Source: Cyanobacteria bacterium P01_D01_bin.44 (GTDB lineage: Bacteria; Cyanobacteriota; Cyanobacteriia; Phormidesmidales; Phormidesmidaceae). Taken from it: a stretch of DNA of 20,642 nt. Shown one piece after another: positions 2,832-19,742 of this stretch (position 1 is the stretch's first letter; each line of letters starts with the position of its first letter). Below the pieces are notes generated by a model. It was not told the DNA's origin. It saw only the letters and a list, made by a program, of their open reading frames with translations, and did no database searches. The translations under genes and the position numbers were made by a program. The stretch is taken from positions 1 to 20,642 of the forward strand of contig JBCCRZ010000029.1 of NCBI GenBank assembly GCA_039200855.1, read 5' to 3'.

Positions 2832-2888
2832 CATTCAGATTTCTAGAGTTTTCTAGAACATTATTTTCTATCTTTGCGGAGAGATTCA

Positions 2889-5051
2889 ATGAATAGCATA
2901 GATTTTTCTTTCTCGGATATGGTTGCCGGGTATGTCACCGACTTTAAGCTAGATGGTGGGCAATCTGGAACTTTCTCACTCAGTACATCGGATGGGCGCG
3001 AGTTTGAGATTGCGTTAACCGCCTCAACCTATGCTGAGTTGGTTCGTAACTTAGGAGAGCCTTATCAAGACTGCACTGCTCAGATTCATTCAATGCTGAC
3101 CCCTGGCCGATATCTTTTTGCTTACGGTATTTTCTATCCTGACACCCAACCATTAGGCTTTGAAGCTAAGCATATCGATTTTGTGGGTCGAACAGAAAGT
3201 GAATACCTTTTCGAGAAGCCAGACTGGTGGCTTAATCAGATTAAGGGGCTGGCCAATTTTTATCTCAAATCACAGTTTGAAGAGGGTGAGATTGATTATC
3301 GAAAATACCGCACGGGATTGGGACTAGTGGGGGCAAAAAATAAGAGTAGTCGGCAAGAGACCGATACTATTTCACGCTTAGTATATGGCTTTGCGACGGC
3401 CTATATGATGACCGGAGAAGATCTTTACTTGGAAGCCGCCGAAAAAGGGACTGAGTATCTTCGTAAACATATGCGCTTTCTAGACGAAGGAGAGGAGATT
3501 TGCTATTGGTACCATGGAATTGATGTAAAGCCAGATGGTAGTGAACAGAAAATATTCTCTTCCGAGTTTGGAGATGACTACGATGCTATTCCTGCTTACG
3601 AGCAGATCTATGCATTAGCTGGACTCACACAAACTTATCGAATTACAGGTGCTCCGAGCATTCTAAATGACATTAAGCTGACGATTAATCTGTTTAATCG
3701 TTATTTCCTGGATACGTCAGAAAAAGGAGGCTTTTTCTCTCATATTGATCCCATTACGCTCAGCCCTGATTGCGAATCATTGGGGCAAAATCGTCTCAAG
3801 AAGAATTGGAATTCTGTTGGCGATCACGCTCCGGCTTATCTAATTAATCTCTGGCTAGCGACTGGCAAGGAAGAGTATGCTGACTTTCTTGAACATACGT
3901 TTGACACGATTGAAAAGTACTTTCCAGACTATGAACATAGTCCCTTCGTTCAGGAACGCTTTTACGAAGATTGGGGCCACGATACAACTTTAGGATGGCA
4001 ACAGAATAGAGCAGTGGTAGGGCATAATCTTAAAATTGCCTGGAACCTAATCCGGATGAATCATTTAAGGCCTAAGGAAAAGTATGTTGCCCTGGCGGAA
4101 AAAATTGCTAAACTTATGCCTGAGGTGGGTTTAGACCGGCAGAGAGGTGGATGGTACGATGTTGTAGAGCGGGTTCTAGAACCCGGCCAGCAGCAACACC
4201 GGTTAGTCTGGCATGATCGAAAGGCATGGTGGCAGCAAGAACAGGGGATCCTGGCTTATCTGATTTTGGCCGGTTCTCTAGATAAGCCCGAGTATAGAAA
4301 GTTGGCACGTGAATCAGCTGCTTTCTACAACGCCTGGTTCCTGGACTATGAGGCAGGGGGGGTTTACTTCAACGTCTTAGCTAACGGAATCCCTTATTTA
4401 TTAGGCACTGAGCGGGGTAAGGGGAGTCACTCTATGAGTGGCTACCACTCCTTTGAACTGGCTTACCTGGCTACGGTTTATACCAATCTGATGCTAACTC
4501 ACAAACCAATGGATCTGTACTTTAACCCACAGCCTGGGGGCTTCGAAGACAATATTCTGAGAGTGCAGCCAGATATTCTTCCGCCCGATAGCGTTCGAAT
4601 TTCTGAGGTATGGATCAATGGTCAACCATACTCTAATTTTGACGCTGACGGCTTAGCGATCAAGCTACCGTCAACTCAAGACAAGATCAAGGTTAGGGTT
4701 CGTATTGTTCCAACCCAAGTCTCTTTCAGTGCGACCTTATTAGACGTGACGAATGGAACTGCCAAGATGTCTTTAGTGGGCTTGTTAGATACCCATGCTG
4801 TTCAGGTTTTTGAAGAAGAGCTGACAAAGATCAAAGGGCAATCGGTCAAGCGCCTCATCTTGCTATTAGATGGTTTACAATGTGTATCTGGAGCAGGTTT
4901 GCGAGCGCTAGCATTTGCCACTCAGAAGATGGATTCTGGCATAGAGGTTCATGTGCAAGGCGCTTCAGAACAAGTTGTAGCTAGCTTTCAGAAAAGCGGT
5001 TTTCACAGAGCTGTGAAGATATTAGAGAAGAGTGAACCCCTTAAGGTTTGA
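2889..5051 (+). CDS. AGE-superfamily (N-acylglucosamine 2-epimerase-like, alpha/alpha-6 barrel) protein with C-terminal STAS domain
   Basis: ORF track 2874..5051 (TTG). ATG 2889 is preferred because GGAGAG (2879-2884) lies 4 nt upstream. The central ~400 aa show AGE/cellobiose-epimerase-like repeating helical motifs (RLVYGFATAY, YEQIYALAGLTQTY, NSVGDHAPAYLINLWLAT, VVGHNLKIAWNL, WWQQEQGILAYL, GYHSFELAYL). The last ~110 aa (nt ~4713-5048) read as a SpoIIAA-like STAS domain (LVGLLDTHAVQVFEEEL...KRLILLLDGLQCVSGAGLRALAFA...IEVHVQGASEQVVASFQKSGFHRAVKI). Confidence 0.7.
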   Translation: MNSIDFSFSDMVAGYVTDFKLDGGQSGTFSLSTSDGREFEIALTASTYAELVRNLGEPYQDCTAQIHSMLTPGRYLFAYGIFYPDTQPLGFEAKHIDFVGRTESEYLFEKPDWWLNQIKGLANFYLKSQFEEGEIDYRKYRTGLGLVGAKNKSSRQETDTISRLVYGFATAYMMTGEDLYLEAAEKGTEYLRKHMRFLDEGEEICYWYHGIDVKPDGSEQKIFSSEFGDDYDAIPAYEQIYALAGLTQTYRITGAPSILNDIKLTINLFNRYFLDTSEKGGFFSHIDPITLSPDCESLGQNRLKKNWNSVGDHAPAYLINLWLATGKEEYADFLEHTFDTIEKYFPDYEHSPFVQERFYEDWGHDTTLGWQQNRAVVGHNLKIAWNLIRMNHLRPKEKYVALAEKIAKLMPEVGLDRQRGGWYDVVERVLEPGQQQHRLVWHDRKAWWQQEQGILAYLILAGSLDKPEYRKLARESAAFYNAWFLDYEAGGVYFNVLANGIPYLLGTERGKGSHSMSGYHSFELAYLATVYTNLMLTHKPMDLYFNPQPGGFEDNILRVQPDILPPDSVRISEVWINGQPYSNFDADGLAIKLPSTQDKIKVRVRIVPTQVSFSATLLDVTNGTAKMSLVGLLDTHAVQVFEEELTKIKGQSVKRLILLLDGLQCVSGAGLRALAFATQKMDSGIEVHVQGASEQVVASFQKSGFHRAVKILEKSEPLKV

Positions 5052-8741: not shown

Positions 8742-10400
8742 ATGATGCCTATTTTATTTGTGTTAGATGACGATCTCGACGTTCTAAAAGCGATTAAGCG
8801 TGACTTGCATTATAAGTATGGACAACATTTCCGAGTATTAGGCGCAAATTCGGGGATTACAGCGCTTGAAACCTTAAAAAACTTAAAGTTGCGCAACCAA
8901 CCAGTCAGCCTATTGTTGTCAGATCAGCGCATGCCACATATGACAGGCGTAGAGTTTTTTGAGCAAGCGATCGCAATTTTCCCCACTGCTAAACGGGTCT
9001 TGATCACAGCTTATACAGATACGGATACGGCAATCCATGCGATTAATAAAACGAAAATTGATTATTACTTACCAAAGCCGTGGACGCCACCGAAAGAGTA
9101 TTTATATCCTATCCTCAGTGATTTGCTCGAAGACTGGCATGCCTCATTTGAGACGCCGTGTAGAGGGATTCGGGTGATTGGTTATCGACGATTGCCTCAG
9201 TCCTATCAAATCAGAGACTTTTTGACACGCAATCAAATTCCTTACCATTGGCTAGATGTTGAAACAGATCACGAAGCCAGTCTTTTATCGAATTGCGTGA
9301 TACCTAACAATTCACAATGGCCTCTAGTGGTTTTTCCAGATGGCTCACATTTGGTGAAGCCTGGAAATGGTGAAATTGCTGAAAAACTAGGCCTAAAGAC
9401 TCGCCCTGAACGCTCATTTTATGATCTGGTGATTGTTGGGGGAGGCCCCTCTGGTTTGGCCGCCGCTGTTTATGGTGCATCCGAAGGACTACGCACGGTT
9501 ATGGTTGAGAGAGAAGCGCCTGGCGGGCAAGCTGGAACAAGTTCTAGAATCGAAAATTATCTAGGATTTCCATCGGGACTCAGTGGGGCAGATTTGGCCA
9601 GGCGGGCTGTCGCGCAGGCTAAACGATTTGGTGTAGAGATTTTGTCTCCCCAAGAAGTAACGAGTATTCATATTGAAGATCCGTATCGCGTGGCTAAATT
9701 AAAGAATGGGGCTGAGCTGAGTTGCCATGCGCTTTTAATTGCCACTGGTGTCACCTATCGCAGACTTGATGTCCCTGGCCTTGAAGCGCTGCGCGGAGCA
9801 GGGGTATACTACGGGGCTGCCACAACGGAAGCATCTGCCTGTCAGGGAGAAGATGTCTATATCGTAGGGGGGGCAAATTCAGCTGGCCAAGCAGCTATTT
9901 ACTGTGCCCAATATGCACGAAGTGTTGTGCTTTTGGTGCGAGGTGCTTCGCTAGAAAAAAGCATGTCTCAGTACTTAATCGATCAAATTAGAGATACAAA
10001 AAACATCACAGTATGGTTACACTCCAGCGTTGTTTCAGTGAAAGGCAAGCCTAGTCTTGAAGCGATTACGGTTGCCAATTCTGTCACCAGGGAGATTCAA
10101 ACGGTTCCGACAACTCGACTTTTTATCTTTATTGGCGCGATCCCGCATACGCACTGGTTAGGGGACACGGTAGAACGAGATCGGTGTGGCTTTATTTTGA
10201 CGGGTCCCGACCTGATGGAGATAGAGCATTGTTCACGTAAGTGGCCGCTTAAGCGCGATCCTTTTTTACTTGAAATGAGTGTTCCTGGCATGTTTGCAGT
10301 GGGGGATGTTCGTCATAAATCGGTCAAACGAGTGGCCTCTGCCGTCGGTGAAGGTGCGATCGCAGTACAGCTCATACATCAGTATCTCAGTACTATTTAA
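8742..10400 (+). CDS. Fused response regulator / thioredoxin-reductase-like FAD-dependent oxidoreductase
   Basis: 552 aa. The N-terminal REC domain has a complete acceptor set (DDD near residue 10, LLLSDQRMP, LITAYTD, YLPKPW). The middle is a thioredoxin-fold-like segment (IRVIGYRRLPQSYQIRDFLTRNQIPYHWLDVE). The C-terminus is a TrxB-like two-dinucleotide-fold domain (YDLVIVGGGPSGLAAAVYGASEGL, GGQAG, VYIVGGANSAGQAA, GMFAVGDV). Confidence 0.85.
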   Translation: MMPILFVLDDDLDVLKAIKRDLHYKYGQHFRVLGANSGITALETLKNLKLRNQPVSLLLSDQRMPHMTGVEFFEQAIAIFPTAKRVLITAYTDTDTAIHAINKTKIDYYLPKPWTPPKEYLYPILSDLLEDWHASFETPCRGIRVIGYRRLPQSYQIRDFLTRNQIPYHWLDVETDHEASLLSNCVIPNNSQWPLVVFPDGSHLVKPGNGEIAEKLGLKTRPERSFYDLVIVGGGPSGLAAAVYGASEGLRTVMVEREAPGGQAGTSSRIENYLGFPSGLSGADLARRAVAQAKRFGVEILSPQEVTSIHIEDPYRVAKLKNGAELSCHALLIATGVTYRRLDVPGLEALRGAGVYYGAATTEASACQGEDVYIVGGANSAGQAAIYCAQYARSVVLLVRGASLEKSMSQYLIDQIRDTKNITVWLHSSVVSVKGKPSLEAITVANSVTREIQTVPTTRLFIFIGAIPHTHWLGDTVERDRCGFILTGPDLMEIEHCSRKWPLKRDPFLLEMSVPGMFAVGDVRHKSVKRVASAVGEGAIAVQLIHQYLSTI

Positions 10401-10404
10401 TATT

Positions 10405-11829
10405 ATGATTGACACTGATACATTATGCCAGTTGCCATATTTTGCTGAGCTATCAAAACAGCAGTTAGACTGGTTGACGAAGCATGGCAACCAGATCACC
10501 CTAAGTCCGGGTGATTTGTTAGTCTCTGAGGGCGATTCGCCTGAATACTTTTATATTCTTCTCAAAGGCGAGCTTCAGAGTACTCAAAATATTGGAGAGG
10601 AGGAGATCGGTTTTGCCAGCTATAAGCCCGGACATTTTCTTGGCGAGATGCATATCGCTCTAGAGAGTGCTCATGTGAGTAGTGTACGGGCTCTGGTTCA
10701 CTGTCAGCTTTTTGAGTTGAAGAAGGGGGTATTTTTTCAAATGATGGCAATGTTTCCCTCTGTAAAACACTTCATTGTCTCTAAGATGGAACAGCATTTT
10801 CACGCAGCTCAAGGCATTCAATACCATGAAAAACTGGTTGGGCTTGGCACATTAGCGGCAGGTCTTGCTCATGAACTGAATAATCCAGCCGTAGCAGGGA
10901 ATCGGGCCGCAGAACATTTGCGCAACCATTTAGAGCGTTTGCAACCGCTGAGGACAGATGTTCAAACCACACTCTTAAGTGACTTGCAACTGGATGTGAT
11001 CTCGCGGGCAACAGCCCCCTTGTTTTCTGATCCATTCGAGAAAAGCGTTCAGGAGAGTACGGAATCCTTCTTATTAGATCCCTTAGAGAGAAGCGATCAG
11101 GAGGATAGAATTTTATCATGGCTGGCGGCCCGTGGTATCAATCATTGTTGGGAACTTGCGCCAACTTTAGTGGAGGCAAATCTACATATAGATTGGTTGG
11201 ACAGGGTTGCAGCGCGTGTAGACGCTGAGTCACTCCCCGGTGTACTGACATGGATTGGGTCTACGTTAGCCGTTAACAGACTACTGAGTGAGATACAACA
11301 TTGCACAACCCGTATTTCTGAAATGGTCAGTGCTGTTAAAGAATATTCGTACATGGATCAGGCTCCACTACAGGAAGTGGATATACATGAGGGGATTAAC
11401 TGTACTCTGTTGATGTTAGGGCATAAGATTAAGCGCGGCATCACCCTATTCTGTGAGTACGACCAACGCCTTCCCCGCATCTGTGTCTATGGCAGTGCAC
11501 TCAACCAAGTTTGGACCAATATCATTGACAATGCGATTGATGCAATTGATGCGATTGATGGACAAGGACAGCTCTGGATTCGCACTATGCGCGAAGATGA
11601 GTGTGTATTAGTTGAGATTATCGATAATGGGTCGGGCATTCCCCCTGAGATTCAATCGCGTATCTTTGAGCCATTTTTTACCATCAAGGGGGTCGGTCAA
11701 GGGACTGGCCTAGGCCTGAGCACTAGCTACCGGATTGTGGTTGAAATCCACCAAGGCAGCATCCGAGTGACGTCTAAGCCGGGTAAAACCTGTTTTCAGG
11801 TTCGCTTACCGCTTAAACAATGCGCTTAA
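10405..11829 (+). CDS. Sensor histidine kinase with N-terminal CAP/cyclic-nucleotide-binding-type domain
   Basis: ORF track 10279..11829. I start at ATG 10405, in frame and 4 nt after the upstream stop, because the upstream extension overlaps the TrxR-like gene. CAP_ED pattern: LPYFAELSKQQLDWL...GDLLVSEGD...FYILLKGEL...FLGEM. H-box LAHELNNP (His codon 10870-10872), N-box WTNIIDNAIDA, G1 DNGSGIP, F FEPFFT, G2 GQGTGLGLS. Confidence 0.85.
   Translation: MIDTDTLCQLPYFAELSKQQLDWLTKHGNQITLSPGDLLVSEGDSPEYFYILLKGELQSTQNIGEEEIGFASYKPGHFLGEMHIALESAHVSSVRALVHCQLFELKKGVFFQMMAMFPSVKHFIVSKMEQHFHAAQGIQYHEKLVGLGTLAAGLAHELNNPAVAGNRAAEHLRNHLERLQPLRTDVQTTLLSDLQLDVISRATAPLFSDPFEKSVQESTESFLLDPLERSDQEDRILSWLAARGINHCWELAPTLVEANLHIDWLDRVAARVDAESLPGVLTWIGSTLAVNRLLSEIQHCTTRISEMVSAVKEYSYMDQAPLQEVDIHEGINCTLLMLGHKIKRGITLFCEYDQRLPRICVYGSALNQVWTNIIDNAIDAIDAIDGQGQLWIRTMREDECVLVEIIDNGSGIPPEIQSRIFEPFFTIKGVGQGTGLGLSTSYRIVVEIHQGSIRVTSKPGKTCFQVRLPLKQCA
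11533..11559 (+). repeat. In-frame 9-bp tandem triplication (GCGATTGAT GCAATTGAT GCGATTGAT) encoding AID-AID-AID in the kinase N-box
   Basis: Read directly from the sequence. The three units are at 11533-11541, 11542-11550 and 11551-11559. Confidence 0.85.
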
Positions 11830-13718: not shown

Positions 13719-14050
13719 GTAGCTTTCTCAACAGGTTACTCTCTTACCATAGCTCCACTCATAAAAAATGATAATATACCTTTTTTGCTAAACACCTTTG
13801 CAATAAGCGCAAAGAAGAGTCCTAATGGGGCTTGGTTCAAACGAAGGTCACACTATGGGCGCGATCAGATCGTCTAAAGGCTTGACGCCATCCTTCCGCG
13901 TTGACGCAATAGCAGGCTGGGCCATTGTCAAAGATGATCTGATTTCGGCTGCGAGTGTTACCTAAAAACCGCTGAAATTGAACCATGCCTAAAATCTTCG
14001 GAGTGGCTGCGTAATTAGGGAGCTATTGATAGGAATATTCTCTTCTGAGT

Positions 14051-14358: not shown

Positions 14359-15498
14359 TTAACCAGGACCATTCGAGGTTGGGTAAGCACGCGAAGACTG
14401 AAACCGTTGAATTGAAAACGGTTCAATCGCCAGGGAGCTCTTGTGATTCAAAATTAGCTCCGACATAATTCGCCCCACAACGGGTGACAGTTGGAAGCCG
14501 TGAGCCGAGAAACCAAACACATGGTAGACGTTGGGCACTTTCGCGCTGGCACCGATGACGGGAATGCGATCCGGCATAAAGGCTTCCAAGCCTGCCCAAG
14601 TTCTGACAATGCGAACACCTGCCATCCTGGGAAACAGGTCCAGCACAGTGCGGCTGCTCTCAGAGAGTTTTAAGAAATCAATTTCTGTCGTCTCTCGCAC
14701 CATATCATGTTCGGCCAGATAAGCCCCGCCAATCAGCACGGTGCCGTTTTGCATCTGCTTAAAAGACAACTTACGGGAGGCAGCCCCCACCACTGGCTCC
14801 AGGAAAGGAGGTAAGCGCTCAGTCACCATCATCATGGGAGCACCAACCTTTAGAGGAACCGGTTCCTCTAAATAGTCACACACTTGTCCAGCCCAAGCTC
14901 CCGCACAATTGACGAGGATGGGGGCATCAAATTTAGTTTGTGCTGACACCACCCGCCAATAATCTCCGACTCGATCTAATCTAGTCACCCGGCAGCCCGT
15001 TCGATACTCTACCCCCAGGGACTGAGCTTTACGACGAAAGGCGGTGAGGGCGTGATAAGGACGGGCAAAGCCATCCCCGGCGCTATACAGTCCGCCGACA
15101 CAATGGGGAGCCAGGGCTGGCACCAGCTGGTAAAGGCGATCGCGATCAATGATTTGCTCATGGTCAAATCCCAGGGACCGAGCCAGGGCAGCCCGTTCTT
15201 CTAGCTTTTGTAAATCGGCAGCATTCTCTGCCACCCGCACCTGTCCGCTGAGTTTAACATCGCAGTCACTGCCGACTAAGGCACGGATATCCCGCCACAT
15301 TTGAGCGGCAACCACTGCCAGGGGAATCTCCGCCGGATGGCGATTCAAACGCCGCAACCCGCCCGCATTGACCCCAGAAGCATGGCGACCAGGGCTGTTC
15401 TTTTCTACAACAATCACCCTCTGGCCAGCCATCGCCAGGTGCAGCGCCGTAGAAGACCCGATCAAACCGCCCCCGATGATCACCACATCTACCGTCAT
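14359..15498 (-). CDS. FAD-dependent oxidoreductase, DAO family (opine oxidase subunit B / HcnC / sarcosine-oxidase-beta-like)
   Basis: The ORF track extends to 15648, but that N-terminal extension overlaps the upstream gene. The real start is ATG 15498 (MTVDVVIIGGGLIGSSTALHLAMAGQRVIVVEK), which forms an ATGA overlap with the upstream stop. The body is DAO-like (HASGVNAGGLR, VNCAGAW, HGFQLSP). Confidence 0.8.
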   Translation of the reverse strand: MTVDVVIIGGGLIGSSTALHLAMAGQRVIVVEKNSPGRHASGVNAGGLRRLNRHPAEIPLAVVAAQMWRDIRALVGSDCDVKLSGQVRVAENAADLQKLEERAALARSLGFDHEQIIDRDRLYQLVPALAPHCVGGLYSAGDGFARPYHALTAFRRKAQSLGVEYRTGCRVTRLDRVGDYWRVVSAQTKFDAPILVNCAGAWAGQVCDYLEEPVPLKVGAPMMMVTERLPPFLEPVVGAASRKLSFKQMQNGTVLIGGAYLAEHDMVRETTEIDFLKLSESSRTVLDLFPRMAGVRIVRTWAGLEAFMPDRIPVIGASAKVPNVYHVFGFSAHGFQLSPVVGRIMSELILNHKSSLAIEPFSIQRFQSSRAYPTSNGPG

Positions 15499-16898
15499 TC
15501 CTCTACCCTCGCTAGGTTGGCTAGCTGAGCAATGCTCAGGGGTCTGATCGGGGGACGCACCCGAAATGGTGGATAGTCGGCGACGGGGCACTGATGAGCA
15601 GCAGCAACAATATGGGCCACTGCTGGGGCACACTGCCTGCCCTGGCAAGGCCCCATCCCACAGCGGAGATAAAATTTAACCTGGTTGGGATCGGCATGGC
15701 CGCCCTGGACAGCCTGGCGGATTTGCCCCGCCGAAATTTCTTCACACCGGCAGACTAAGGTTTCGTCATCGGAGGGGACGAGAAGTGACTCTGGTAGGCG
15801 GGATAAGGCTTCTAGAAAGGGGCGAACTTTCAAATCTCGCCGCAACCCCTTGAGATCCGCCTTACCCTGACGATCCCGCTGTTGGGAGTTGATTAGATTC
15901 AATCTTCGAGCCGCTTCCAGGGCTGCTAACCGACCACGATGTTCGGCGCTACGCGCCCCCCCAATCCCGGCATTATCGCCCACGACTACAATCCCCGGCA
16001 CAGTCGTATTGCCCCACTGATCCACCTGGGGACGCCAACTCTGTTGACCCTGATCCCAGATCTGCTGGCAACCTGCGGCTCGGGTCAGGTTAGTTCTGGG
16101 GATCACCCCAAAATGCACCAGGAGACTGTCTGTGCTGATGGTCTCGCGCCGACGGATGCCCAGACTATCCCAACCGTATTCCACTGCCTCGATGTGCTTG
16201 TCACCTTGAGCCTGTAAGTGAGAAATCCCGTAGTAAATGGGCACGCCCGCTTTATTGAGATCCAGGGTGTATTTCAACCCACGGGTAATGTAATCTCCAG
16301 CGCCTAATGCCCTCGGTAAATGAGGAGCAGCCCGCCACAAGTTGCTGCCAGGGGAGAGGTCTAGCACAGCTTTCACCGAGACCCCAGCCCGGACGTATTG
16401 CCAGGCCACCAACAGGGGCAACGGCCCAGTTCCGGCGATGACCGTCCCATTAGCGGGCACCACCCCAGTGGTTTTCAGCAATATCTGGGCTGCGCCTGCA
16501 TTCATCACCCCTGGCAACGTCCAGCCCAGAAAGGGGACGGGGCGCTCCATGGCCCCACTGGCCACAATCACCTGCTCCGCTTGAATGAGGGAAGCTTGTT
16601 CGTGGCGCAAGATGCCAATCTGACGCTGAGCATTCAAAGACCAAACGGTTGTCTGGGGTAAATACTGGGCTCCACTGGCGTCAAAGGCTTTTACCAGGTC
16701 AGCACCGTGCTGGTAATCGGCCCCCAGCAATCTTGCCCGGTCTGCGGGAGCATTTGAGATTGCCCGGTAAATTTGTCCACCGGGGGAGGGTTGCTCATCG
16801 AAGACCACCACATCCATGCCCAGACTGGCCGCGGTGGTCGCCGCACACAGCCCCCCAGGCCCGGCCCCAATCACCACGAGCTGGTATGACTCAGGCAT
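15495..16898 (-). CDS. NAD(P)/FAD-dependent oxidoreductase with C-terminal BFD-like [2Fe-2S] motif (opine oxidase subunit A / HcnB-like)
   Basis: ORF track 15495..16907 (GTG). ATG 16898 gives MPESYQLVVIGAGPGGLCAATTAASLG. There is a second dinucleotide fold (VIAGTGPLPLLVA). The C-terminal Cys cluster is CRCEEIS...YLRCGMGPCQGRQC. Confidence 0.8.
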   Translation of the reverse strand: MPESYQLVVIGAGPGGLCAATTAASLGMDVVVFDEQPSPGGQIYRAISNAPADRARLLGADYQHGADLVKAFDASGAQYLPQTTVWSLNAQRQIGILRHEQASLIQAEQVIVASGAMERPVPFLGWTLPGVMNAGAAQILLKTTGVVPANGTVIAGTGPLPLLVAWQYVRAGVSVKAVLDLSPGSNLWRAAPHLPRALGAGDYITRGLKYTLDLNKAGVPIYYGISHLQAQGDKHIEAVEYGWDSLGIRRRETISTDSLLVHFGVIPRTNLTRAAGCQQIWDQGQQSWRPQVDQWGNTTVPGIVVVGDNAGIGGARSAEHRGRLAALEAARRLNLINSQQRDRQGKADLKGLRRDLKVRPFLEALSRLPESLLVPSDDETLVCRCEEISAGQIRQAVQGGHADPNQVKFYLRCGMGPCQGRQCAPAVAHIVAAAHQCPVADYPPFRVRPPIRPLSIAQLANLARVEE

Positions 16899-17187
16899 CT
16901 TCCCCACCGACTCCCCGCTGGCGGCAAATCTTCATGCCTTCTGCTACCTGCACTTGACAGGCTTGACGGTTGGGCACGCCGTCGATTTCCATCAGGCACT
17001 CAAAACACACCCCCATCATACATAAAGGGGCACGAGGTGCCCCCGACAGAGGTGTGGTACGGGTATACCCTAACCCATGGACTAAAACAGCCGCAGCCAC
17101 TGTCTCATCTGCAGGAACTTGGACCTCCTCACTTTCAATATTGACGGTTACCGTCGGGTCACTCAGGTCACTCAGACGCTTAAACAT
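16891..17187 (-). CDS. Small (2Fe-2S)-binding subunit (HcnA / sarcosine-oxidase-alpha N-terminal-like)
   Basis: 98 aa: TVNIESEEVQVPADETVAAAVL...PLCMMGVCFECLMEIDGVPNRQACQVQV. This is the Cys pattern of the small subunit of HcnABC-type enzymes. Its 3' end overlaps the next gene's start by 8 nt. Confidence 0.75.
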   Translation of the reverse strand: MFKRLSDLSDPTVTVNIESEEVQVPADETVAAAVLVHGLGYTRTTPLSGAPRAPLCMMGVCFECLMEIDGVPNRQACQVQVAEGMKICRQRGVGGEDA

Positions 17188-17220
17188 GTTTGGTTGCCTC
17201 CCCAGTCCATTGTCCCAGCA

Positions 17221-18282
17221 TCAGACCTTCACCTTCGAGGCCAGATCAGGATGCTCAAACACCATACTCTGTTGCAGGTCTAGCTGGGTCCCCTGGTGGT
17301 GTTTCTTGGCTCGATTGAACATTGCCGTTGCGATCGCAACATCAATATAGGCCAGACCCACAGCATTAAAATAGATCCGCTCTGCCGCCGATTCACGCCC
17401 TGGCTTTTTCCCCGACACCAATTCATGCAGATCGGCATGGATACTGTTAGCGCCAATCAGCCCTTCTTTATACATCCGGCTTAACGTCTGGGTCCGGTGG
17501 GTGACCGTTTCCCAGTCGTCGCACACGATTTTATCGGCCTGTAAGGCCACTTCATATTCATCCTCCCAGCCCCCCACATGGCTATAGAAAGCACCGGGTT
17601 TCATCCAGACCGCTTTGAGTAAGGGGGCCTGGGCGCTGGTGGCGGTTACCAGAATATCCGCACCCTCCATGGCTTTTTGAGCATCCGTATTCGTTGAGAA
17701 AAACTCCATATCTGGATACAACCGTGAGAGCTCAGCAACGAATTGTTCTTCATGGGTCACCTGGTAGTCTGATACTCGACATTGCTTAAGCCCAGGACAT
17801 ACCGCTTTCATTGCGATTAAATGCATCTTCGCCTGCTCGCCGGCCCCAATGAACCCAATCACTTCAGAGTCTGGGCGAGCTAGGCGCTTGGCCGCAATCC
17901 CACCCATAGCAGCTACCCGCATATTCGATGCGAGCGTCCCTTCCATAACACAGATAGGAAACCCCGTTTCAATTTCCGAAAGGATAAAAATAGCCGATAA
18001 ATTTTGCTGGTCGTGCTGGCTGGGATTCATCGGAAAGACCGACACCCATTTCACGCCGCACACCTTTTCATCTAAAAGCGTTGCCGGTAAACAGTTAATC
18101 CGTTCTTGGGTGGCCTGATTAAAAATCTGTACAATTTTCTCAGGAAAAATGACATGATGCCTCTCAAATTCGAGCATGCCTTTTTCTGCGACATCCATCA
18201 CCATCCGGATGTCCATACAACCTGCATCCAGGAGGTCTTCCTGGGATAAATAAGTGAATCTGAGACTATGTTTGTGAGTCAT
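17221..18282 (-). CDS. Ornithine cyclodeaminase / mu-crystallin family NAD(P)-dependent enzyme
   Basis: 353 aa. Motifs: VCGVKWVSVFPMNP, TLASNMRVAAMGG (T..R.AA), Rossmann VIGFIGAGEQAKMHL, ADILVTATSAQAPLL, PGAFYSHVGG, NAVGLAYIDVAIA. It lies 33 nt upstream of the 2Fe-2S subunit gene on the same strand. Confidence 0.85.
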   Translation of the reverse strand: MTHKHSLRFTYLSQEDLLDAGCMDIRMVMDVAEKGMLEFERHHVIFPEKIVQIFNQATQERINCLPATLLDEKVCGVKWVSVFPMNPSQHDQQNLSAIFILSEIETGFPICVMEGTLASNMRVAAMGGIAAKRLARPDSEVIGFIGAGEQAKMHLIAMKAVCPGLKQCRVSDYQVTHEEQFVAELSRLYPDMEFFSTNTDAQKAMEGADILVTATSAQAPLLKAVWMKPGAFYSHVGGWEDEYEVALQADKIVCDDWETVTHRTQTLSRMYKEGLIGANSIHADLHELVSGKKPGRESAAERIYFNAVGLAYIDVAIATAMFNRAKKHHQGTQLDLQQSMVFEHPDLASKVKV

Positions 18283-18691
18283 AAAGAGGATTCCTAAAAC
18301 TTACTGTGAAAAACATTTAGTCAATACTCAACTCGACTGGAAGAGAAAAAGCCTAGGCGAGCATGGGATTTGGATTGCCTCAAGAGCATATAATCTAATC
18401 TGTTTAGCCATTTTGATCACCAAACAAACCGATGAAAACATTTCCTGTCTCAAATCAACTAGCAACGACACTCATTTCTATCATGGCTTCTTCTTGCTGA
18501 AGGAAACATATAAATTTAATTTTCTAAAACATTGTTACGTTGCTTTAAATTTACCAATCTACCTATCCATCCCAGGATTGACAGTTCAGAACACCAGCAA
18601 CGTGTTATGGATTTGAGCATCTCTGAAAATGAAAGCTCCACGTGTGAGCTGACTACTTGAATCCAGCCTAAACGGCGACACTAGAGAAAAC

Positions 18692-19411
18692 GGCTGTGTT
18701 GCAAGAAGTTAGTTAGGAGAGGATTTTCCTGCCGATAGATCCTTGATTAGCCAGCCACTCCGAAGAGCTCGTGGATGAAAGAGAGCTGTCCTATAACATC
18801 GCCTTTGTCGATATCTTTGACCTGTCCCTTACGAATCATATTCATTGCCTCATAACCTCTGAGGGTTCGTCTGGCCGTGTTGAATGAGCTAAACCCCAGG
18901 CCAGGTTTGATGCGTCGTTTGATGAATCTATGGTCCTGTTCGACAATTATGATTTGATTTGAGCACTTTCTTGAGAAAGCATTTGGCGGCTTTGGCATCC
19001 CGCTTAGCACTGAGCATGAAGTCCAGGGTATTGCCTTCAGAATCGACGGCTCGATAGAGGTATTTCCACACGCCTTTGATTTTGATGTACGTTTCATCCA
19101 CCCTCCATTAATCATGGGTGGGACTCAGATGCGGGCGGCAACGCTTGTCTAATTCCCGGCTGTAAGCCTGGACCCAACGAAAGATAGTGGTGTGATCGAC
19201 TTTGAGGCCACGCTCACGCATCATTTCCTCCAAATCTCGATAGCTCAAGCTATAGCGCAGATACCATTGGACATTCAGCAGGATGATCTCAGGTTTGAAA
19301 TGACACCACTTAAACGGTTTTGAGGAAGACATGGACTATTGGCAGATGCGATCGAGCAGACTTTAGATTAACCTGGAATTATAAAATGGGGCGCTTTTTT
19401 GCAACGGAACC
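18692..19411 (-). mobile_element. Degenerate IS6-family insertion sequence (~720 bp) with recognisable terminal inverted repeats
   Basis: Left end GGCTGTGTTGCAAG (18692-18705). The right end reverse-complements to GGTTCCGTTGCAAAAAA (19411 back to 19395). Both fit the IS6/IS26-type GGnnnnGTTGCAA terminus. The transposase pseudogene lies inside. The element is ~100 bp shorter than typical IS6 members, consistent with the internal deletion. The flanking 8-mers (gagaaaac and ggaactcc) do not match, so no target-site duplication is seen. Confidence 0.75.
18747..19332 (-). pseudogene. IS6-family DDE transposase pseudogene (in-frame stop plus out-of-frame internal deletion)
   Basis: The N-terminus FKWCHFKPEIILLNVQWYLRYSLSYRDLEEMMRERGLKVDHTTIFRWVQ is classic IS6. 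An in-frame TAA at 19108-19110 is followed in the same frame by WRVDETYIKIKGVWKYLYRAVDSEGNTLDFMLSAKRDAKAAKCFLKKVLKS, ending at a TAG (18928-18930). The C-terminus (IVEQDHRFIKRRIKPGLGFSSFNTARRTLRGYEAMNMIRKGQV) continues in the +1 frame. The ~40-45 aa that normally carry the second catalytic Asp are missing. Confidence 0.85.
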
Positions 19412-19473
19412 GGAACTCCTCGGATTGAAGCGTTTCCAACAGACCTAATCCAACTGCTTCAAAACGGAAGCTC

Positions 19474-19502: not shown

Positions 19503-19607
19503 CGTGAAAGTGTAACCTGAAAACCCCAGTTTTTGCACCATGCCCGAAACTTAGCAACCATCCGAGCGCAGCGCGTCCAGGACAGGGCGGATGGCACTGG
19601 TCAGCAT

Positions 19608-19648
19608 AAACCTGAATAAACCTGAATAAACCTGAATTTAAACCTGAA
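19608..19648 (+). repeat. Direct-repeat array of AAACCTGAA, 4 copies spaced 10, 10 and 12 bp
   Basis: Copies are at 19608-19616, 19618-19626, 19628-19636 and 19640-19648. A fifth copy, TAACCTGAA, is at 19513-19521. The array ends 95 nt upstream of the NRPS ATG. Confidence 0.85.
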
Positions 19649-19742
19649 CAAATATGACATTTTAGGGATTTTCTCTGTCAGCCATCTCCGACATGATTGA
19701 GGCATATCGAACAAGCCAGCCTTTCACCACAGGAGAGATATC

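What the first reader, a model, noticed from the sequence alone, without database searches (positions are those of the whole stretch)
14359..18282. OCD/mu-crystallin enzyme co-operonic with a three-subunit HcnABC/opine-oxidase-type flavoenzyme in a cyanobacterium
**Operon structure.** The four minus-strand genes have gaps or overlaps of +33, -8 and -4 nt. They encode an OCD-family NAD(P) enzyme, a 98-aa 2Fe-2S subunit, an HcnB/OoxA-like subunit with a BFD-type Cys cluster, and a DAO-family HcnC/OoxB-like subunit.

**Known precedents for this combination:**
- Agrobacterium Ti-plasmid opine catabolism, where ooxB/ooxA or noxB/noxA sit next to ocd.
- Proteobacterial hydroxyproline/D-proline routes, where a heteromeric D-hydroxyproline dehydrogenase acts alongside an OCD-family pyrroline-2-carboxylate reductase.

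**Inference.** The set oxidises a secondary amine (an opine, or a D-/cyclic imino acid), and the OCD-family partner reduces or cyclises the product. That would give a D-to-L stereoinversion or a proline/pipecolate/opine-type building block.

**Why it matters.** I am not aware of a characterised cyanobacterial example. Its position ~1.5 kb from an NRPS start raises the possibility of precursor supply. The substrate cannot be read from the sequence.
Basis: partly seen in the sequence, partly recalled or inferred. Interest (0 to 1): 0.75.

Follow-up and report, generated by a model that had tools for sequence, protein, structure and literature searches.

The report
Mobile four-gene amine oxidation–reduction cassette
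Four tightly packed genes encode a three-subunit flavin/iron-sulfur amine dehydrogenase of the opine-dehydrogenase family and an uncharacterised OCD/mu-crystallin-type NAD(P) dehydrogenase; this set recurs as a self-contained, IS-flanked unit in marine cyanobacteria and Gammaproteobacteria, its substrate is unknown, and nothing links it to the neighbouring NRPS gene.

Summary
**Observation: confirmed.**
- Four minus-strand genes lie at 14359-18282 with spacings of +33, -8 and -4 nt.
- They encode an OCD/mu-crystallin protein, a 98-aa Fer2_4 subunit, a Pyr_redox_2+BFD subunit and a DAO subunit.

**Flavoenzyme.**
- It carries every cofactor motif of the flavin-containing opine dehydrogenase (OdhABC) family.
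- Its catalytic subunit falls with 100% bootstrap in the clade whose beta gene follows alpha (Watanabe's type-2, C-A-B order).
- It lies apart from HcnC (27% identity), OoxB (21%) and SoxB (21%).

**OCD-family protein.**
- It is not a cyclodeaminase: OCD's Glu56 and the Asp228 loop are missing.
- Its nearest structures are SbnB, archaeal AlaDH and T. litoralis Pyr2C reductase.
- 121 of 122 clade members lack the NAD-specific Asp, which suggests NADPH use.

**Distribution.**
- At least 9 marine cyanobacteria and many marine Gammaproteobacteria carry the four genes together, in three arrangements, with no transporter, regulator or NRPS.
- In the window, inverted IS6 remnants bracket the set.

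**Best reading (moderate confidence).** The flavoenzyme oxidises a C-N bond of an endogenous D- or N-substituted amino acid. The OCD-like enzyme reduces the product with NAD(P)H.

**Rejected.** NRPS precursor supply is not supported. HCN synthase and sarcosine oxidase are rejected.

The parts
17221..18282 (-). OCD/mu-crystallin-family NAD(P)-dependent dehydrogenase (353 aa). It belongs to an uncharacterised clade and is not a cyclodeaminase.
   Evidence: - PF02423, E 1.8e-55. All NCBIfam hits fall below their cut-offs: SbnB family 203 of 327 bits, archaeal AlaDH 197 of 409.
- The tetrad K49/K78/R122/D314 is invariant in 122 of 122 clade members. Asn63 replaces OCD Glu56. The GGDxPGK loop carrying Asp228 is replaced by a shorter GGWEDE.
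- Foldseek top hits are SbnB, TlLhpI and AfAlaDH.
16891..17187 (-). Gamma subunit, a [2Fe-2S] ferredoxin-like protein (98 aa).
   Evidence: - PF13510, E 1.5e-24.
- Motif C-x4-C-x2-C-x12-C at residue 56.
- 41% identity to the pTiAch5 Oox gamma and 36% to HcnA.
15495..16898 (-). Alpha subunit (467 aa): FAD-binding Pyr_redox_2 fold with a BFD-type [2Fe-2S] Cys cluster and an SO_alpha_A3 domain.
   Evidence: - Pfam domains.
- GAGPGG at residue 11 and C-x-C-x27-C-x4-C-x4-C at residue 383.
- 42% identity to OoxA and 30% to HcnB.
14359..15498 (-). Beta (catalytic) subunit, DAO-family flavoprotein (379 aa), of the type-2 Odh-like clade.
   Evidence: - PF01266, E 3.8e-73.
- GGGLIG at residue 9 and the R-T-W FMN motif at residue 299.
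- NJ bootstrap 100 for the clade shared with proteobacterial betas that lie downstream of alpha (50-55% identity to the closest of them; 41-55% across the clade).
- HcnC 27.6%, OoxB 21.1%, SoxB 21.5%.
18283..18690 (-). AT-rich upstream region (GC about 0.35-0.41), the presumed promoter region of the four-gene unit.
   Evidence: Composition profile. No consensus sigma-70 site was found, so this is an inference only.
13995..14046 (+). Relic of the 3' end of a second IS6-family element (last codons ..KIFGVAA* plus downstream bases). It is the left arm of the 52-nt inverted repeat that brackets the cassette.
   Evidence: the repeat finder I1: 52 nt, 79% complementary to 18715-18766. blastn E 4e-8. 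Translation.
18691..19412 (-). Degraded IS6-family element. The transposase is broken into at least 3 frames. IS26-like terminal inverted repeats lie at 18691-18707 and 19396-19412. The right arm of the 52-nt repeat lies at 18715-18766.
   Evidence: - PF13610 and NF033587 hits.
- Terminal inverted repeat.
- 72% identity to an ISAcma1-family IS6 element on Acaryochloris plasmids.

Best explanation
**What it is (well supported).**
- The four genes form a self-contained, horizontally mobile unit.
- Gamma, alpha and beta assemble into a heteromeric FAD/FMN/[2Fe-2S] amine dehydrogenase. It belongs to the flavin-containing opine dehydrogenase (OdhABC) family, in the lineage with C-A-B gene order and a 'type-2' beta.
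- The fourth gene encodes an OCD/mu-crystallin-family dehydrogenase. It retains the substrate-carboxylate/amine tetrad but lacks the residues that make a cyclodeaminase.

**How it most likely works (inferred).**
- The flavoenzyme oxidises the C(alpha)-N bond of a D-configured or N-substituted amino or imino acid made inside the cell. Electrons pass through FMN and the Fe-S clusters to a membrane or soluble acceptor.
- The resulting imine, or the 2-oxo acid after its hydrolysis, is reduced by the OCD-like enzyme with NAD(P)H to an L-configured product.
- The pair would therefore act as a cofactor-coupled oxidation-reduction (deracemisation or salvage) module. It would resemble DauA/DauB, or D-proline dehydrogenase plus Pyr2C reductase.
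- The substrate cannot be named from sequence.
- The unit entered this genome on an IS6 composite structure and is functionally unrelated to the adjacent NRPS.
For: **Family of the flavoenzyme.**
- All motifs that Watanabe 2015 (PMC4575208) gives for Odh, D-HypDH and L-ProDH are present.
- Alpha is 42% identical to OoxA.
- Beta sits in a clade with 100% bootstrap together with betas encoded downstream of alpha in gamma-alpha-beta or beta1-gamma-alpha-beta2 clusters. Those are the arrangements described for BtOdhC-A-B and BjOdhB1-C-A-B2.

**Functional coupling with the OCD gene.**
- The OCD gene is adjacent in 8 of 8 cyanobacterial loci, and in 8 of 8 gammaproteobacterial loci whose contig reaches that side (the ninth, L013, is cut inside alpha). 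The layouts differ: upstream, downstream or divergent.
- Cyanobacterial alpha, beta and gamma are monophyletic (76-88% identity). Their OCD partners fall into two lineages, at 85-89% and 61-65% identity, so the partner was exchanged yet kept adjacent.
- A 46%-identical OCD relative again sits with RidA and a beta-gamma-alpha complex in L092.

**Direction of the OCD-like step.**
- The tetrad is invariant.
- Asn63 replaces OCD Glu56, and the Asp228 loop is absent.
- The NAD-specific Asp (Watanabe 2014, PMC4141209) is Ala or Ser in 121 of 122 members. This points to NADPH and a reductive role.
- The nearest folds are SbnB, TlLhpI and AfAlaDH.

**Endogenous substrate.**
- No transporter or regulator lies in any OCD-cassette locus, and the flanks are housekeeping genes.
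- By contrast, the three OCD-less type-2 clusters read in full (L047, L052, L076), the Ti occ operon and L092 all carry ABC or TRAP transporters.

**An imine is released.** A RidA gene follows the flavoenzyme genes in 38 of 92 loci, including 4 gammaproteobacterial cassettes and the Ti occ operon.

**Mobility.**
- A 52-nt inverted repeat, made of two IS6 3' ends, brackets the cassette.
- GC3 is 0.53-0.61 in the cassette against 0.40-0.48 in neighbouring genes.
- Copies lie on Acaryochloris plasmids, next to a related IS6 element.
Against: - No biochemical datum exists for any member of this clade, and the substrate is unknown.
- The only characterised type-2 enzyme (BjOdhAB2C) is an octopine dehydrogenase with a millimolar Km. 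That fits opine cleavage rather than stereoinversion.
- I did not have the B. japonicum or B. thailandensis sequences. The 'type-2' label therefore rests on gene order plus clade membership.
- LhpBEF (D-HypDH) was not compared directly.
- RidA would hydrolyse an acyclic imine. That fits a keto-acid intermediate, and it fits opine cleavage equally well.
- The window's own OCD protein has Asp at the coenzyme position (1 of 122), so here it may use NAD(H).
- The nearest OCD relatives (43-50% identity) sit with ATP-grasp ligases in glycan clusters. That hints at synthesis of unusual N-substituted amino acids rather than salvage.
- Co-transcription is inferred from spacing only.
- The AF2 model is of only moderate confidence (pLDDT 71) and is poor in the substrate loops.
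Confidence: 0.45

Rival explanations
1. Opine-type catabolism, as in the Ti-plasmid occ operon. The flavoenzyme cleaves an N-(carboxyalkyl) amino acid, for example a marine opine such as alanopine, strombine or tauropine, or an octopine-family compound. The products are an amino acid and a 2-oxo acid. The OCD-like enzyme then oxidises the released L-amino acid (AlaDH-like), or cleaves the other C-N bond as SbnB does.
For: - The closest named and characterised relatives are opine enzymes: OoxA at 42% identity and the type-2 Odh described as an octopine dehydrogenase.
- pTiAch5 has ooxB-gamma-ooxA-ridA-ocd. That is the same gene families in one operon.
- OCD-superfamily members include sponge tauropine/strombine dehydrogenases, succinamopine synthase and SbnB.
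- The hosts are marine, and L092 is a clearly catabolic cluster containing a related OCD-like gene.
Against: - No transporter or regulator lies in any of about 17 cassette loci from two phyla. The three OCD-less type-2 clusters read in full, the Ti occ operon and L092 all have them.
- The lack of the NAD-specific Asp in 121 of 122 members argues for NADPH-dependent reduction rather than catabolic oxidation.
Confidence: 0.27
2. An opine redox shuttle. The OCD-like enzyme condenses an abundant amino acid with pyruvate or 2-oxoglutarate, using NADPH. The flavoenzyme, with RidA, re-oxidises the opine and passes the electrons to the quinone or cytochrome pool. The net reaction is NADPH:acceptor oxidoreduction.
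For: - The cassette is self-contained, with no transporter, and sits among housekeeping genes.
- The OCD-like enzyme has an NADPH-type signature.
- The flavoenzyme family uses artificial acceptors and cytochrome c, not O2.
- The hosts (cyanobacteria, Methylococcales) have extensive internal membranes; this last point is my own background knowledge.
Against: - There is no precedent in bacteria and no direct evidence.
- The cassette is patchily distributed and IS- or plasmid-borne in cyanobacteria. That is odd for a core redox function.
- A decaying copy exists in L005.
Confidence: 0.08
3. Precursor supply for the neighbouring NRPS (a proline-, pipecolate- or opine-type building block).
For: - The NRPS Condensation-domain ORF starts 1.44 kb from the OCD start.
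- OCD-family enzymes supply pipecolate or L-Dap in some pathways (RapL, SbnB, CmnK).
Against: - The NRPS gene is divergent.
- A degraded IS6 element lies between the two.
- The cassette is bracketed by IS6 remnants.
- No NRPS lies next to the cassette in the four other cyanobacterial loci with gene calls (L002, L004-L006) or in the gammaproteobacterial loci.
- The NRPS is cut by the contig end, so no A-domain can be read.
Confidence: 0.04
4. Ornithine to proline to P5C. The OCD protein is a true cyclodeaminase and the flavoenzyme is a heteromeric L-proline dehydrogenase of the archaeal type.
For: The best PDB hit for beta is P. horikoshii L-proline dehydrogenase beta, 1y56_B. Cyanobacterial arginine catabolism is known to run through ornithine and proline; this is my own knowledge and was not tested.
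Against: - Beta is only 24.6% identical to PDH beta and lies in another clade.
- The OCD-like protein lacks Glu56 and the Asp228 loop.
- It is only 25-27% identical to the Ti Ocd.
- It scores 116 bits on the OCD model, whose cut-off is 350.
Confidence: 0.05
5. HCN synthase (HcnABC) or heterotetrameric sarcosine oxidase.
For: The gene order gamma-alpha-beta equals hcnA-hcnB-hcnC. One ortholog is labelled HcnB by an automatic annotation. Weak soxA and soxB model hits exist.
Against: - Identities to P. aeruginosa HcnA/B/C are only 36, 30 and 27%. HcnC carries a roughly 40-aa insertion that is absent here.
- The HcnC clade is separate, with 100% bootstrap, and is sister to the window's clade in only 3% of replicates.
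- hcnABC has no OCD partner.
- Alpha is 467 aa without the GCV_T half of SoxA. soxA scores 108 of 1164 bits and soxB 109 of 529. There are no soxD or soxG genes.
Confidence: 0.02

Closest known systems
Flavin-containing opine dehydrogenase OdhABC, type-2 lineage (B. japonicum OdhAB2C; B. thailandensis OdhC-A-B; Watanabe et al. 2015, PMC4575208)
   Same: - Three subunits with the same domains and the same cofactor motifs: two ADP-binding sites, two kinds of [2Fe-2S] motif, and R-x-W.
- The same C-A-B gene order.
- Beta clusters with 100% bootstrap with proteobacterial betas in that arrangement, at 50-55% identity to the closest of them.
- A RidA gene often follows the flavoenzyme genes.
   Different: - The window's sub-clade always carries an OCD-family gene and never a transporter or regulator.
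- The three OCD-less type-2 clusters read in full have ABC transporters and no OCD gene.
- The substrate is unknown.
Octopine catabolism operon of Ti plasmids (occQMPT-ooxB-gamma-ooxA-ridA-ocd, pTiAch5)
   Same: The same four protein families, plus RidA, lie in one operon. Alpha is 42% identical and gamma 41%.
   Different: - Gene order is beta-gamma-alpha.
- OoxB is a type-1 beta, 21-23% identical.
- Ti Ocd is a true cyclodeaminase, 25-27% identical, with Glu56 and the GGDCPGK loop.
- The Ti operon includes an opine ABC transporter and the regulator OccR.
DauA/DauB coupled dehydrogenases of P. aeruginosa (D-Arg to L-Arg; Li & Lu 2009, as cited in PMC4141209)
   Same: The logic of a DAO-family flavin dehydrogenase paired with an OCD-superfamily NAD(P)H enzyme, giving D-to-L conversion.
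   Different: DauA is a single-subunit enzyme. DauB belongs to another OCD subfamily (subfamily 10). The resemblance is by analogy only; no sequences were compared here.
Thermococcus litoralis LhpI (Pyr2C reductase/AlaDH/N-methyl-Ala DH) clustered with heteromeric L-proline dehydrogenases (PMC4141209)
   Same: - An OCD-family enzyme with the same tetrad sits next to Odh-related heteromeric flavoenzymes.
- TlLhpI is among the top sequence and fold matches: 32.5% identity, TM 0.80/0.87.
   Different: - The archaeal cluster also has proline racemase-like and dehydratase genes.
- TlLhpI has the NAD-specific Asp and a longer loop.
- PDH beta is only 24.6% identical to the window's beta.
SbnB / CmnK (N-(1-amino-1-carboxy-2-ethyl)-glutamate dehydrogenase, L-Dap synthesis)
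   Same: - SbnB is the best PDB sequence and fold hit: 154 bits, TM 0.81/0.86.
- It shares the shortened loop in place of GGDxPGK.
- It acts on an opine-like secondary amine.
   Different: - Identity is only 29%.
- The score on the SbnB model is below cut-off, 203 of 327 bits.
- No SbnA partner is present; the partner here is a flavoenzyme.
HCN synthase HcnABC
   Same: Gene order and subunit sizes. It belongs to the same superfamily of heteromeric flavoenzymes.
   Different: Identities are 27-36%. HcnC forms a separate clade and carries a specific insertion. There is no OCD partner.

Membership tests
Heteromeric flavin-containing amine dehydrogenases (OpnDH / D-HypDH / HCN synthase / archaeal L-ProDH superfamily; Watanabe 2015) | Three subunits encoded in tandem: a DAO-family beta, a small 2Fe-2S gamma, and a Pyr_redox_2/BFD alpha | tested here: met
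   Pfam domains. Overlapping genes.
Heteromeric flavin-containing amine dehydrogenases (OpnDH / D-HypDH / HCN synthase / archaeal L-ProDH superfamily; Watanabe 2015) | Cofactor motifs: GxGxxG in alpha and beta; C-x4-C-x2-C-x11-12-C in gamma; a C-x-C...C-x4-C cluster in alpha; R-x-W (FMN) in beta | tested here: met
   All were found: gamma residue 56; alpha residues 11 and 383; beta residues 9 and 299. The alpha Cys cluster is invariant in the alignment of 14 alpha orthologues (A1).
Heteromeric flavin-containing amine dehydrogenases (OpnDH / D-HypDH / HCN synthase / archaeal L-ProDH superfamily; Watanabe 2015) | alpha4beta4gamma4 assembly with FAD, FMN and [2Fe-2S]; dye-linked dehydrogenase, not oxidase | not testable with these tools
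   Needs expression, gel filtration and cofactor analysis.
OpnDH type-2 (BjOdhB2 / BtOdhB lineage) | Beta encoded downstream of alpha (C-A-B or B1-C-A-B2) and phylogenetically distinct from type-1 (OoxB/NoxB/PpOdhB) | tested here: met
   Gene order. NJ bootstrap is 100 for the clade with downstream betas and 100 for a separate OoxB/type-1 clade.
OpnDH type-2 (BjOdhB2 / BtOdhB lineage) | Direct orthology to the characterised B. japonicum and B. thailandensis proteins; octopine dehydrogenase activity | not tested
Activity needs an assay.
HCN synthase HcnABC | Membership of the HcnC/HcnB/HcnA clades (cyanide-forming glycine dehydrogenase) | tested here: not met
   Identities of 27, 30 and 36% to P. 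aeruginosa HcnC, HcnB and HcnA. HcnC has an insertion absent here. The clades are separate with 100% bootstrap.
Heterotetrameric sarcosine oxidase SoxABDG | An alpha of about 965 aa with a C-terminal folate/GCV_T domain, plus delta and gamma subunits; scores above the soxA and soxB model cut-offs | tested here: not met
   Alpha is 467 aa with no GCV_T domain. TIGR01372 scores 108 of 1164 bits and TIGR01373 109 of 529. No soxD or soxG lies nearby.
D-hydroxyproline dehydrogenase LhpBEF | Membership of the LhpB clade; beta-gamma-alpha order; neighbouring Hyp epimerase and Pyr4H2C deaminase genes | tested here: inconclusive
   The gene order differs, and no epimerase or deaminase gene lies in the window or in related loci. 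No LhpB sequence was available for a tree.
Ornithine (or lysine) cyclodeaminase sensu stricto | Glu56 (binds the delta-amino group) and catalytic Asp228 in the GGDxPGK loop (P. putida numbering); score above the OCD model cut-off | tested here: not met
   - Asn63 is invariant at the Glu56 position.
- The loop is replaced by GGWEDE.
- 25-27% identity to the Ti Ocd.
- NF005762 scores 116 of 350 bits.
OCD/mu-crystallin superfamily dehydrogenases | Rossmann GxGxx[A/S] motif and the substrate tetrad [R/K]-K-R-D | tested here: met
   Rossmann motif G146-A-G-E-Q-A151. K49, K78, R122 and D314 are invariant in 122 of 122 members.
OCD/mu-crystallin superfamily dehydrogenases | NAD(H)-specific Asp after the second Rossmann strand (TlLhpI Asp159) | tested here: inconclusive
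   Asp172 is present in the window protein, but the position is Ala (101) or Ser (20) in the other 121 clade members.
SbnB family (TIGR03944) | Score above the equivalog cut-off; partnered with SbnA | tested here: not met
   203 bits against a cut-off of 326.9. 29% identity. No SbnA-like gene in any locus examined.

The most novel reading that the evidence does not exclude
The cassette would be a stand-alone 'opine shuttle'. An NADPH-dependent OCD-like synthase and a membrane-linked flavin dehydrogenase would cycle one small N-(carboxyalkyl) amino acid. The cycle would feed NADPH electrons into the quinone or cytochrome pool of bacteria with internal membranes (cyanobacteria, methanotrophs). 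That would be a bacterial counterpart of invertebrate opine redox metabolism. Alternatively, it could be a PLP-independent deracemase for an as yet unrecognised endogenous D- or N-substituted amino acid.
Probability: 0.1. Interest if true: 0.8.

Novelty: new variant of a known kind. Interest (0 to 1): 0.45.

Why it matters
- Both enzyme families are known, and their pairing has precedents: the Ti occ operon, DauAB and the archaeal LhpI clusters.
- This particular four-gene unit has no characterised member, yet it is abundant. It pairs a type-2 Odh complex with a tightly conserved OCD-like dehydrogenase in which 165 of 353 positions are at least 97% conserved.
- The 90%-identity cluster of the OCD clade's library representative has 1252 member sequences. 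They come from marine Gammaproteobacteria (methanotrophs, Arenicellales, Thiotrichaceae) and at least 9 marine cyanobacteria.
- The unit carries no transporter or regulator. Its substrate is therefore probably an ordinary intracellular metabolite.
- Identifying that substrate would assign a function to a large block of 'FAD-dependent oxidoreductase' and 'ornithine cyclodeaminase family' annotations.
- It would also extend the known chemistry of both superfamilies.
- For natural-product mining the result is negative: the gene set should not be counted as part of the neighbouring NRPS cluster.

Tried and rejected
- **HCN synthase.** I recovered genuine P. aeruginosa hcnABC. All three subunits are distant and phylogenetically separate. 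Rejected.
- **Sarcosine oxidase.** The domain architecture and model scores fail. Rejected.
- **True ornithine cyclodeaminase.** The catalytic residues are missing. Rejected.
- **NRPS link.** I looked for an NRPS next to orthologous cassettes in 4 other cyanobacterial and 8 gammaproteobacterial loci and found none.
- **Recent transfer from a GC-rich proteobacterium.** The cassette is GC-richer than its flanks in 10 of the 11 related loci measured (the exception, Synechococcus PCC 7336, has GC-rich flanks), including the gammaproteobacterial hosts. It also carries two cyanobacterial HIP1 sites. Composition alone therefore does not show a recent inter-phylum transfer. The IS6 bracket and the plasmid copies show mobility within cyanobacteria.
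- **Promoter/terminator scan.** Nothing above the shuffled expectation.
- **Rfam.** No RNA family in the window.
- **Naming the nearest OCD relatives.** Cluster names were almost all missing. One was 'SbnB-type' according to JGI.
- **SuyAB-like reading of the SAF+GD_AH pair in L092.** NCBIfam gave only a weak galactarate-dehydratase hit, so there is no substrate clue.

Full report
**1. What is in the sequence**

- Four minus-strand ORFs occupy 14359-18282. With the biologically sensible ATG starts, the layout is as follows:

| Gene | Coordinates | Length |
|---|---|---|
| OCD-family | 17221-18282 | 353 aa |
| gamma | 16891-17187 | 98 aa |
| alpha | 15495-16898 | 467 aa |
| beta | 14359-15498 | 379 aa |

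- The spacings are +33, -8 and -4 nt. A GGGGAGG ribosome-binding site precedes gamma, and the other two junctions are ATG/TGA overlaps.
- Pfam assigns PF02423 to the OCD protein and PF13510 to gamma. Alpha carries PF07992 + PF04324 + PF17806, and beta carries PF01266.
- The window is almost the whole 20,644-bp contig of the MAG 'Cyanobacteria bacterium P01_D01_bin.44'.
- A contig from an independent run carries the identical OCD protein with the same neighbours.

**2. The flavoenzyme**

- All cofactor motifs that Watanabe et al. (2015, PMC4575208) list for the heteromeric opine, D-hydroxyproline and L-proline dehydrogenases are present:
  - GxGxxG in alpha and beta;
  - C-x4-C-x2-C-x12-C in gamma;
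  - the C-x-C...C-x4-C cluster in alpha;
  - R-T-W in beta.
- A tblastn search of plasmids found Ti-plasmid OoxA as the closest named relative of alpha, at 42% identity.
- To test the HcnABC alternative I retrieved genuine P. aeruginosa HcnC and its locus. The window subunits are only 27% (beta/HcnC), 30% (alpha/HcnB) and 36% (gamma/HcnA) identical. HcnC also has an insertion of about 40 residues that is absent here.
- A scan of one genome per species with an alpha-subunit alignment returned 80 loci. Mapping the four window proteins on them shows three classes:
  - cyanobacteria, with alpha at 78-86% identity;
  - marine Gammaproteobacteria, with alpha at 54-55% and beta at 61-66%;
  - other Proteobacteria, with alpha at 38-48%.
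- In the third class the arrangements are beta1-gamma-alpha, gamma-alpha-beta2 or beta1-gamma-alpha-beta2. These are exactly the PpOdhB-C-A, BtOdhC-A-B and BjOdhB1-C-A-B2 layouts of the paper.
- In NJ trees the window's beta groups with the 'beta downstream of alpha' proteins with 100% bootstrap. It is 50-55% identical to the closest of them. The HcnC clade and the OoxB/type-1 clade are each separate, also at 100%.
- Archaeal PDH beta is 24.6% identical and SoxB is 21.5% identical.
- Sarcosine oxidase also fails on architecture and on model scores.
- I therefore file the complex in the Odh family, type-2 lineage. The caveat is that the characterised B. japonicum and B. thailandensis sequences themselves, and LhpBEF, were not compared.

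**3. The OCD-family protein**

- It scores below every NCBIfam cut-off. The best hits are the SbnB family (203 of 327 bits) and archaeal AlaDH (197 of 409). True OCD scores 116 of 350.
- PDB searches by sequence and by fold give the same order: SbnB, T. litoralis Pyr2C reductase (TlLhpI) and A. fulgidus AlaDH come first, and true cyclodeaminases rank well below.
- I applied the superfamily features defined by Watanabe et al. 2014 (PMC4141209):
  - the [R/K]-K-R-D tetrad is K49/K78/R122/D314, invariant in 122 clade members;
  - OCD's Glu56 position is an invariant Asn63;
  - the GGDxPGK loop with the catalytic Asp228 is replaced by a shorter, invariant GGWEDE, a deletion shared only with SbnB.
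- It is thus a dehydrogenase/reductase and not a cyclodeaminase.
- The Asp that marks NAD(H)-specific members is Ala or Ser in 121 of 122 clade members ('CRVAAK'). That suggests NADPH. The window protein alone has Ser-Asp-Tyr at this site.
- The exhaustive representative search places the whole clade in one 50% cluster. The 90%-identity cluster of its representative has 1252 members.
- The nearest outside relatives, at 43-50% identity, are also uncharacterised:
  - ATP-grasp ligase-OCD fusions in polysaccharide clusters;
  - a neighbour of an ATP-grasp gene in a NeuB cluster;
  - a protein that JGI labels SbnB-type;
  - a 46% relative that again sits with RidA and a beta-gamma-alpha complex, behind a GntR regulator, a TRAP-TAXI transporter and a dehydratase.

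**4. Is the pairing real?**

- The OCD gene is adjacent to gamma-alpha-beta in all eight cyanobacterial loci. It is also adjacent in all eight gammaproteobacterial loci of the clade whose contig reaches that side; the ninth, L013, is cut inside alpha.
- The cyanobacterial layouts differ:
  - upstream on the same strand in the window, Leptothoe and Pleurocapsa;
  - downstream in Synechococcus PCC 7336;
  - divergent on Acaryochloris plasmids.
- The identity matrices are incongruent. Cyanobacterial alpha, beta and gamma are monophyletic at 76-88% identity. Their OCD partners form two lineages, at 85-89% and 61-65%, that correlate with layout. The window type is closer to the gammaproteobacterial OCDs, at 71-74%.
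- The partner has therefore been exchanged or re-acquired yet always kept next to the complex. That is good comparative evidence of functional coupling.
- OCD is also the most conserved of the four proteins across phyla.

**5. Context clues**

- None of the cassette loci has a transporter or regulator. In Gammaproteobacteria the flanks are unrelated housekeeping genes.
- The three OCD-less type-2 clusters read in full, the Ti occ operon and L092 all have ABC or TRAP transporters.
- A RidA (imine deaminase family) gene follows the last flavoenzyme gene in 38 of 92 loci. These include pTiAch5 and four gammaproteobacterial cassettes, but no cyanobacterial one.
- Together with the NADPH signature, this makes an endogenous substrate and a reductive role for the OCD-like enzyme the most economical reading.
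- In that reading the flavoenzyme's relatives attack D-configured or achiral C-N centres (D-Hyp, the D-carboxyalkyl side of opines, glycine), and it makes an imine or oxo acid. The OCD-like enzyme's relatives make L-centres, and it reduces that product. The logic is that of DauA/DauB, or of D-proline dehydrogenase plus Pyr2C reductase.
- I give this 0.45.
- Opine catabolism of the Ti type is the main rival, at 0.27. It rests on the characterised relatives and on the verified ooxB-gamma-ooxA-ridA-ocd operon.
- A closed opine redox shuttle is the most novel reading that the evidence does not exclude.

**6. Mobility and the NRPS**

- The cassette has higher GC (0.50-0.59) and GC3 (0.53-0.61) than its neighbours (GC about 0.46, GC3 0.40-0.48).
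- The same offset occurs in 10 of the 11 related loci measured; the exception, Synechococcus PCC 7336, has GC-rich flanks. Two HIP1 sites also lie inside the cassette. Composition alone is therefore not proof of recent import.
- The structural evidence is stronger. A 52-nt inverted repeat (13995-14046 and 18715-18766, 79% complementary) brackets the cassette.
  - Each arm is the 3' end of an IS6-family transposase gene.
  - The right arm belongs to a frameshifted IS6 element at 18691-19412 with IS26-like terminal repeats.
  - The left arm is a short relic.
- A related IS6 element lies about 1.3 kb from the OCD gene on an Acaryochloris plasmid. One plasmid copy of the cassette is decaying.
- The NRPS ORF is real: a Condensation domain from 19722 on the + strand. 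However, it is divergent, lies beyond the IS6 element, and is cut by the contig end.
- The NRPS has no counterpart next to the cassette in the other loci with gene calls, four cyanobacterial and eight gammaproteobacterial.
- Precursor supply is not supported.

**7. Verdict**

It is also imprecise on family: the complex is Odh type-2 rather than Hcn, and the OCD-family protein is a dehydrogenase rather than a cyclodeaminase.
- The unit is a new, widespread variant of a known kind of system, with an unknown substrate.
- Interest is moderate. It is a good target for enzymology but is not categorically new.

Noticed in passing
window 13995-14046 and 18691-19412: Two inverted IS6-family remnants bracket the cassette like a decayed composite transposon. 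One is a 52-nt relic and the other a frameshifted element with IS26-like inverted repeats. A related ISAcma1-family IS6 element lies near the cassette on Acaryochloris plasmid NZ_CP064926.
   Followed up: yes
window 17767-17769 (OCD residue 172): The window's OCD-like protein is the only one of 122 clade members with Asp at the NAD-specificity position (S-D-Y instead of A-A-K). This may be a coenzyme switch.
   Followed up: partly
window 18217-18282: NCBI's gene model for the OCD protein (331 aa) starts 22 codons too late. The omitted N-terminus contains residues that are invariant in all homologues (F9, Y11-E15).
   Followed up: yes
window 19607-19657: A 10-nt tandem motif, TAAACCTGAA, is repeated about five times just upstream of the NRPS Condensation-domain ORF that starts at 19722. 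Its function is unknown.
   Followed up: no
window 8742-10400 and 10279-11829: A response-regulator receiver is fused to a thioredoxin-reductase-like flavoprotein (552 aa). It is followed by a protein with cNMP-binding and HATPase_c domains. This is an unusual redox-signalling pair.
   Followed up: no
window 2874-5051: A 725-aa protein combines a GlcNAc-2-epimerase-like domain with a C-terminal STAS domain, next to a GlgX/isoamylase-type debranching enzyme (714-2831).
   Followed up: no
window 8967, 10356, 11993, 15136, 17330: There are five HIP1 (GCGATCGC) sites against 0.25 expected. Two lie inside the cassette, so the cassette has been in the cyanobacterial gene pool for a long time.
   Followed up: partly
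L005 7973-9032 and 11495-12505 (Acaryochloris sp. 'Moss Beach' plasmid): This is a decaying copy of the cassette. The OCD gene is split by a frameshift, the beta gene is N-terminally truncated and was not called, and many IS elements lie around it.
   Followed up: partly
L093 6001-8367, L094 4468-6834, L095 4697-7041: The closest relatives outside the clade are ATP-grasp (L-amino-acid ligase)-OCD-like fusions, or adjacent gene pairs. They sit inside polysaccharide or nonulosonic-acid clusters (Wzy, DegT, NeuB). They may make and attach N-substituted amino acids to sugars.
   Followed up: partly
L092 148-10442: A metagenomic cluster reads GntR, TRAP-TAXI transporter, SAF+GD_AH dehydratase, OCD-like (46% identity), RidA, beta (type-1-like), gamma, alpha. 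This second, clearly catabolic setting pairs this OCD lineage with an Odh complex.
   Followed up: partly
L012 4109-4441, L088 11867-12223, L091 10473-10817 and 35 further loci: A RidA/YjgF-family gene immediately follows the last Odh-type gene in 38 of 92 loci, across type-1, type-2 and OCD-cassette clusters. This association is not discussed in the Odh papers I read.
   Followed up: yes
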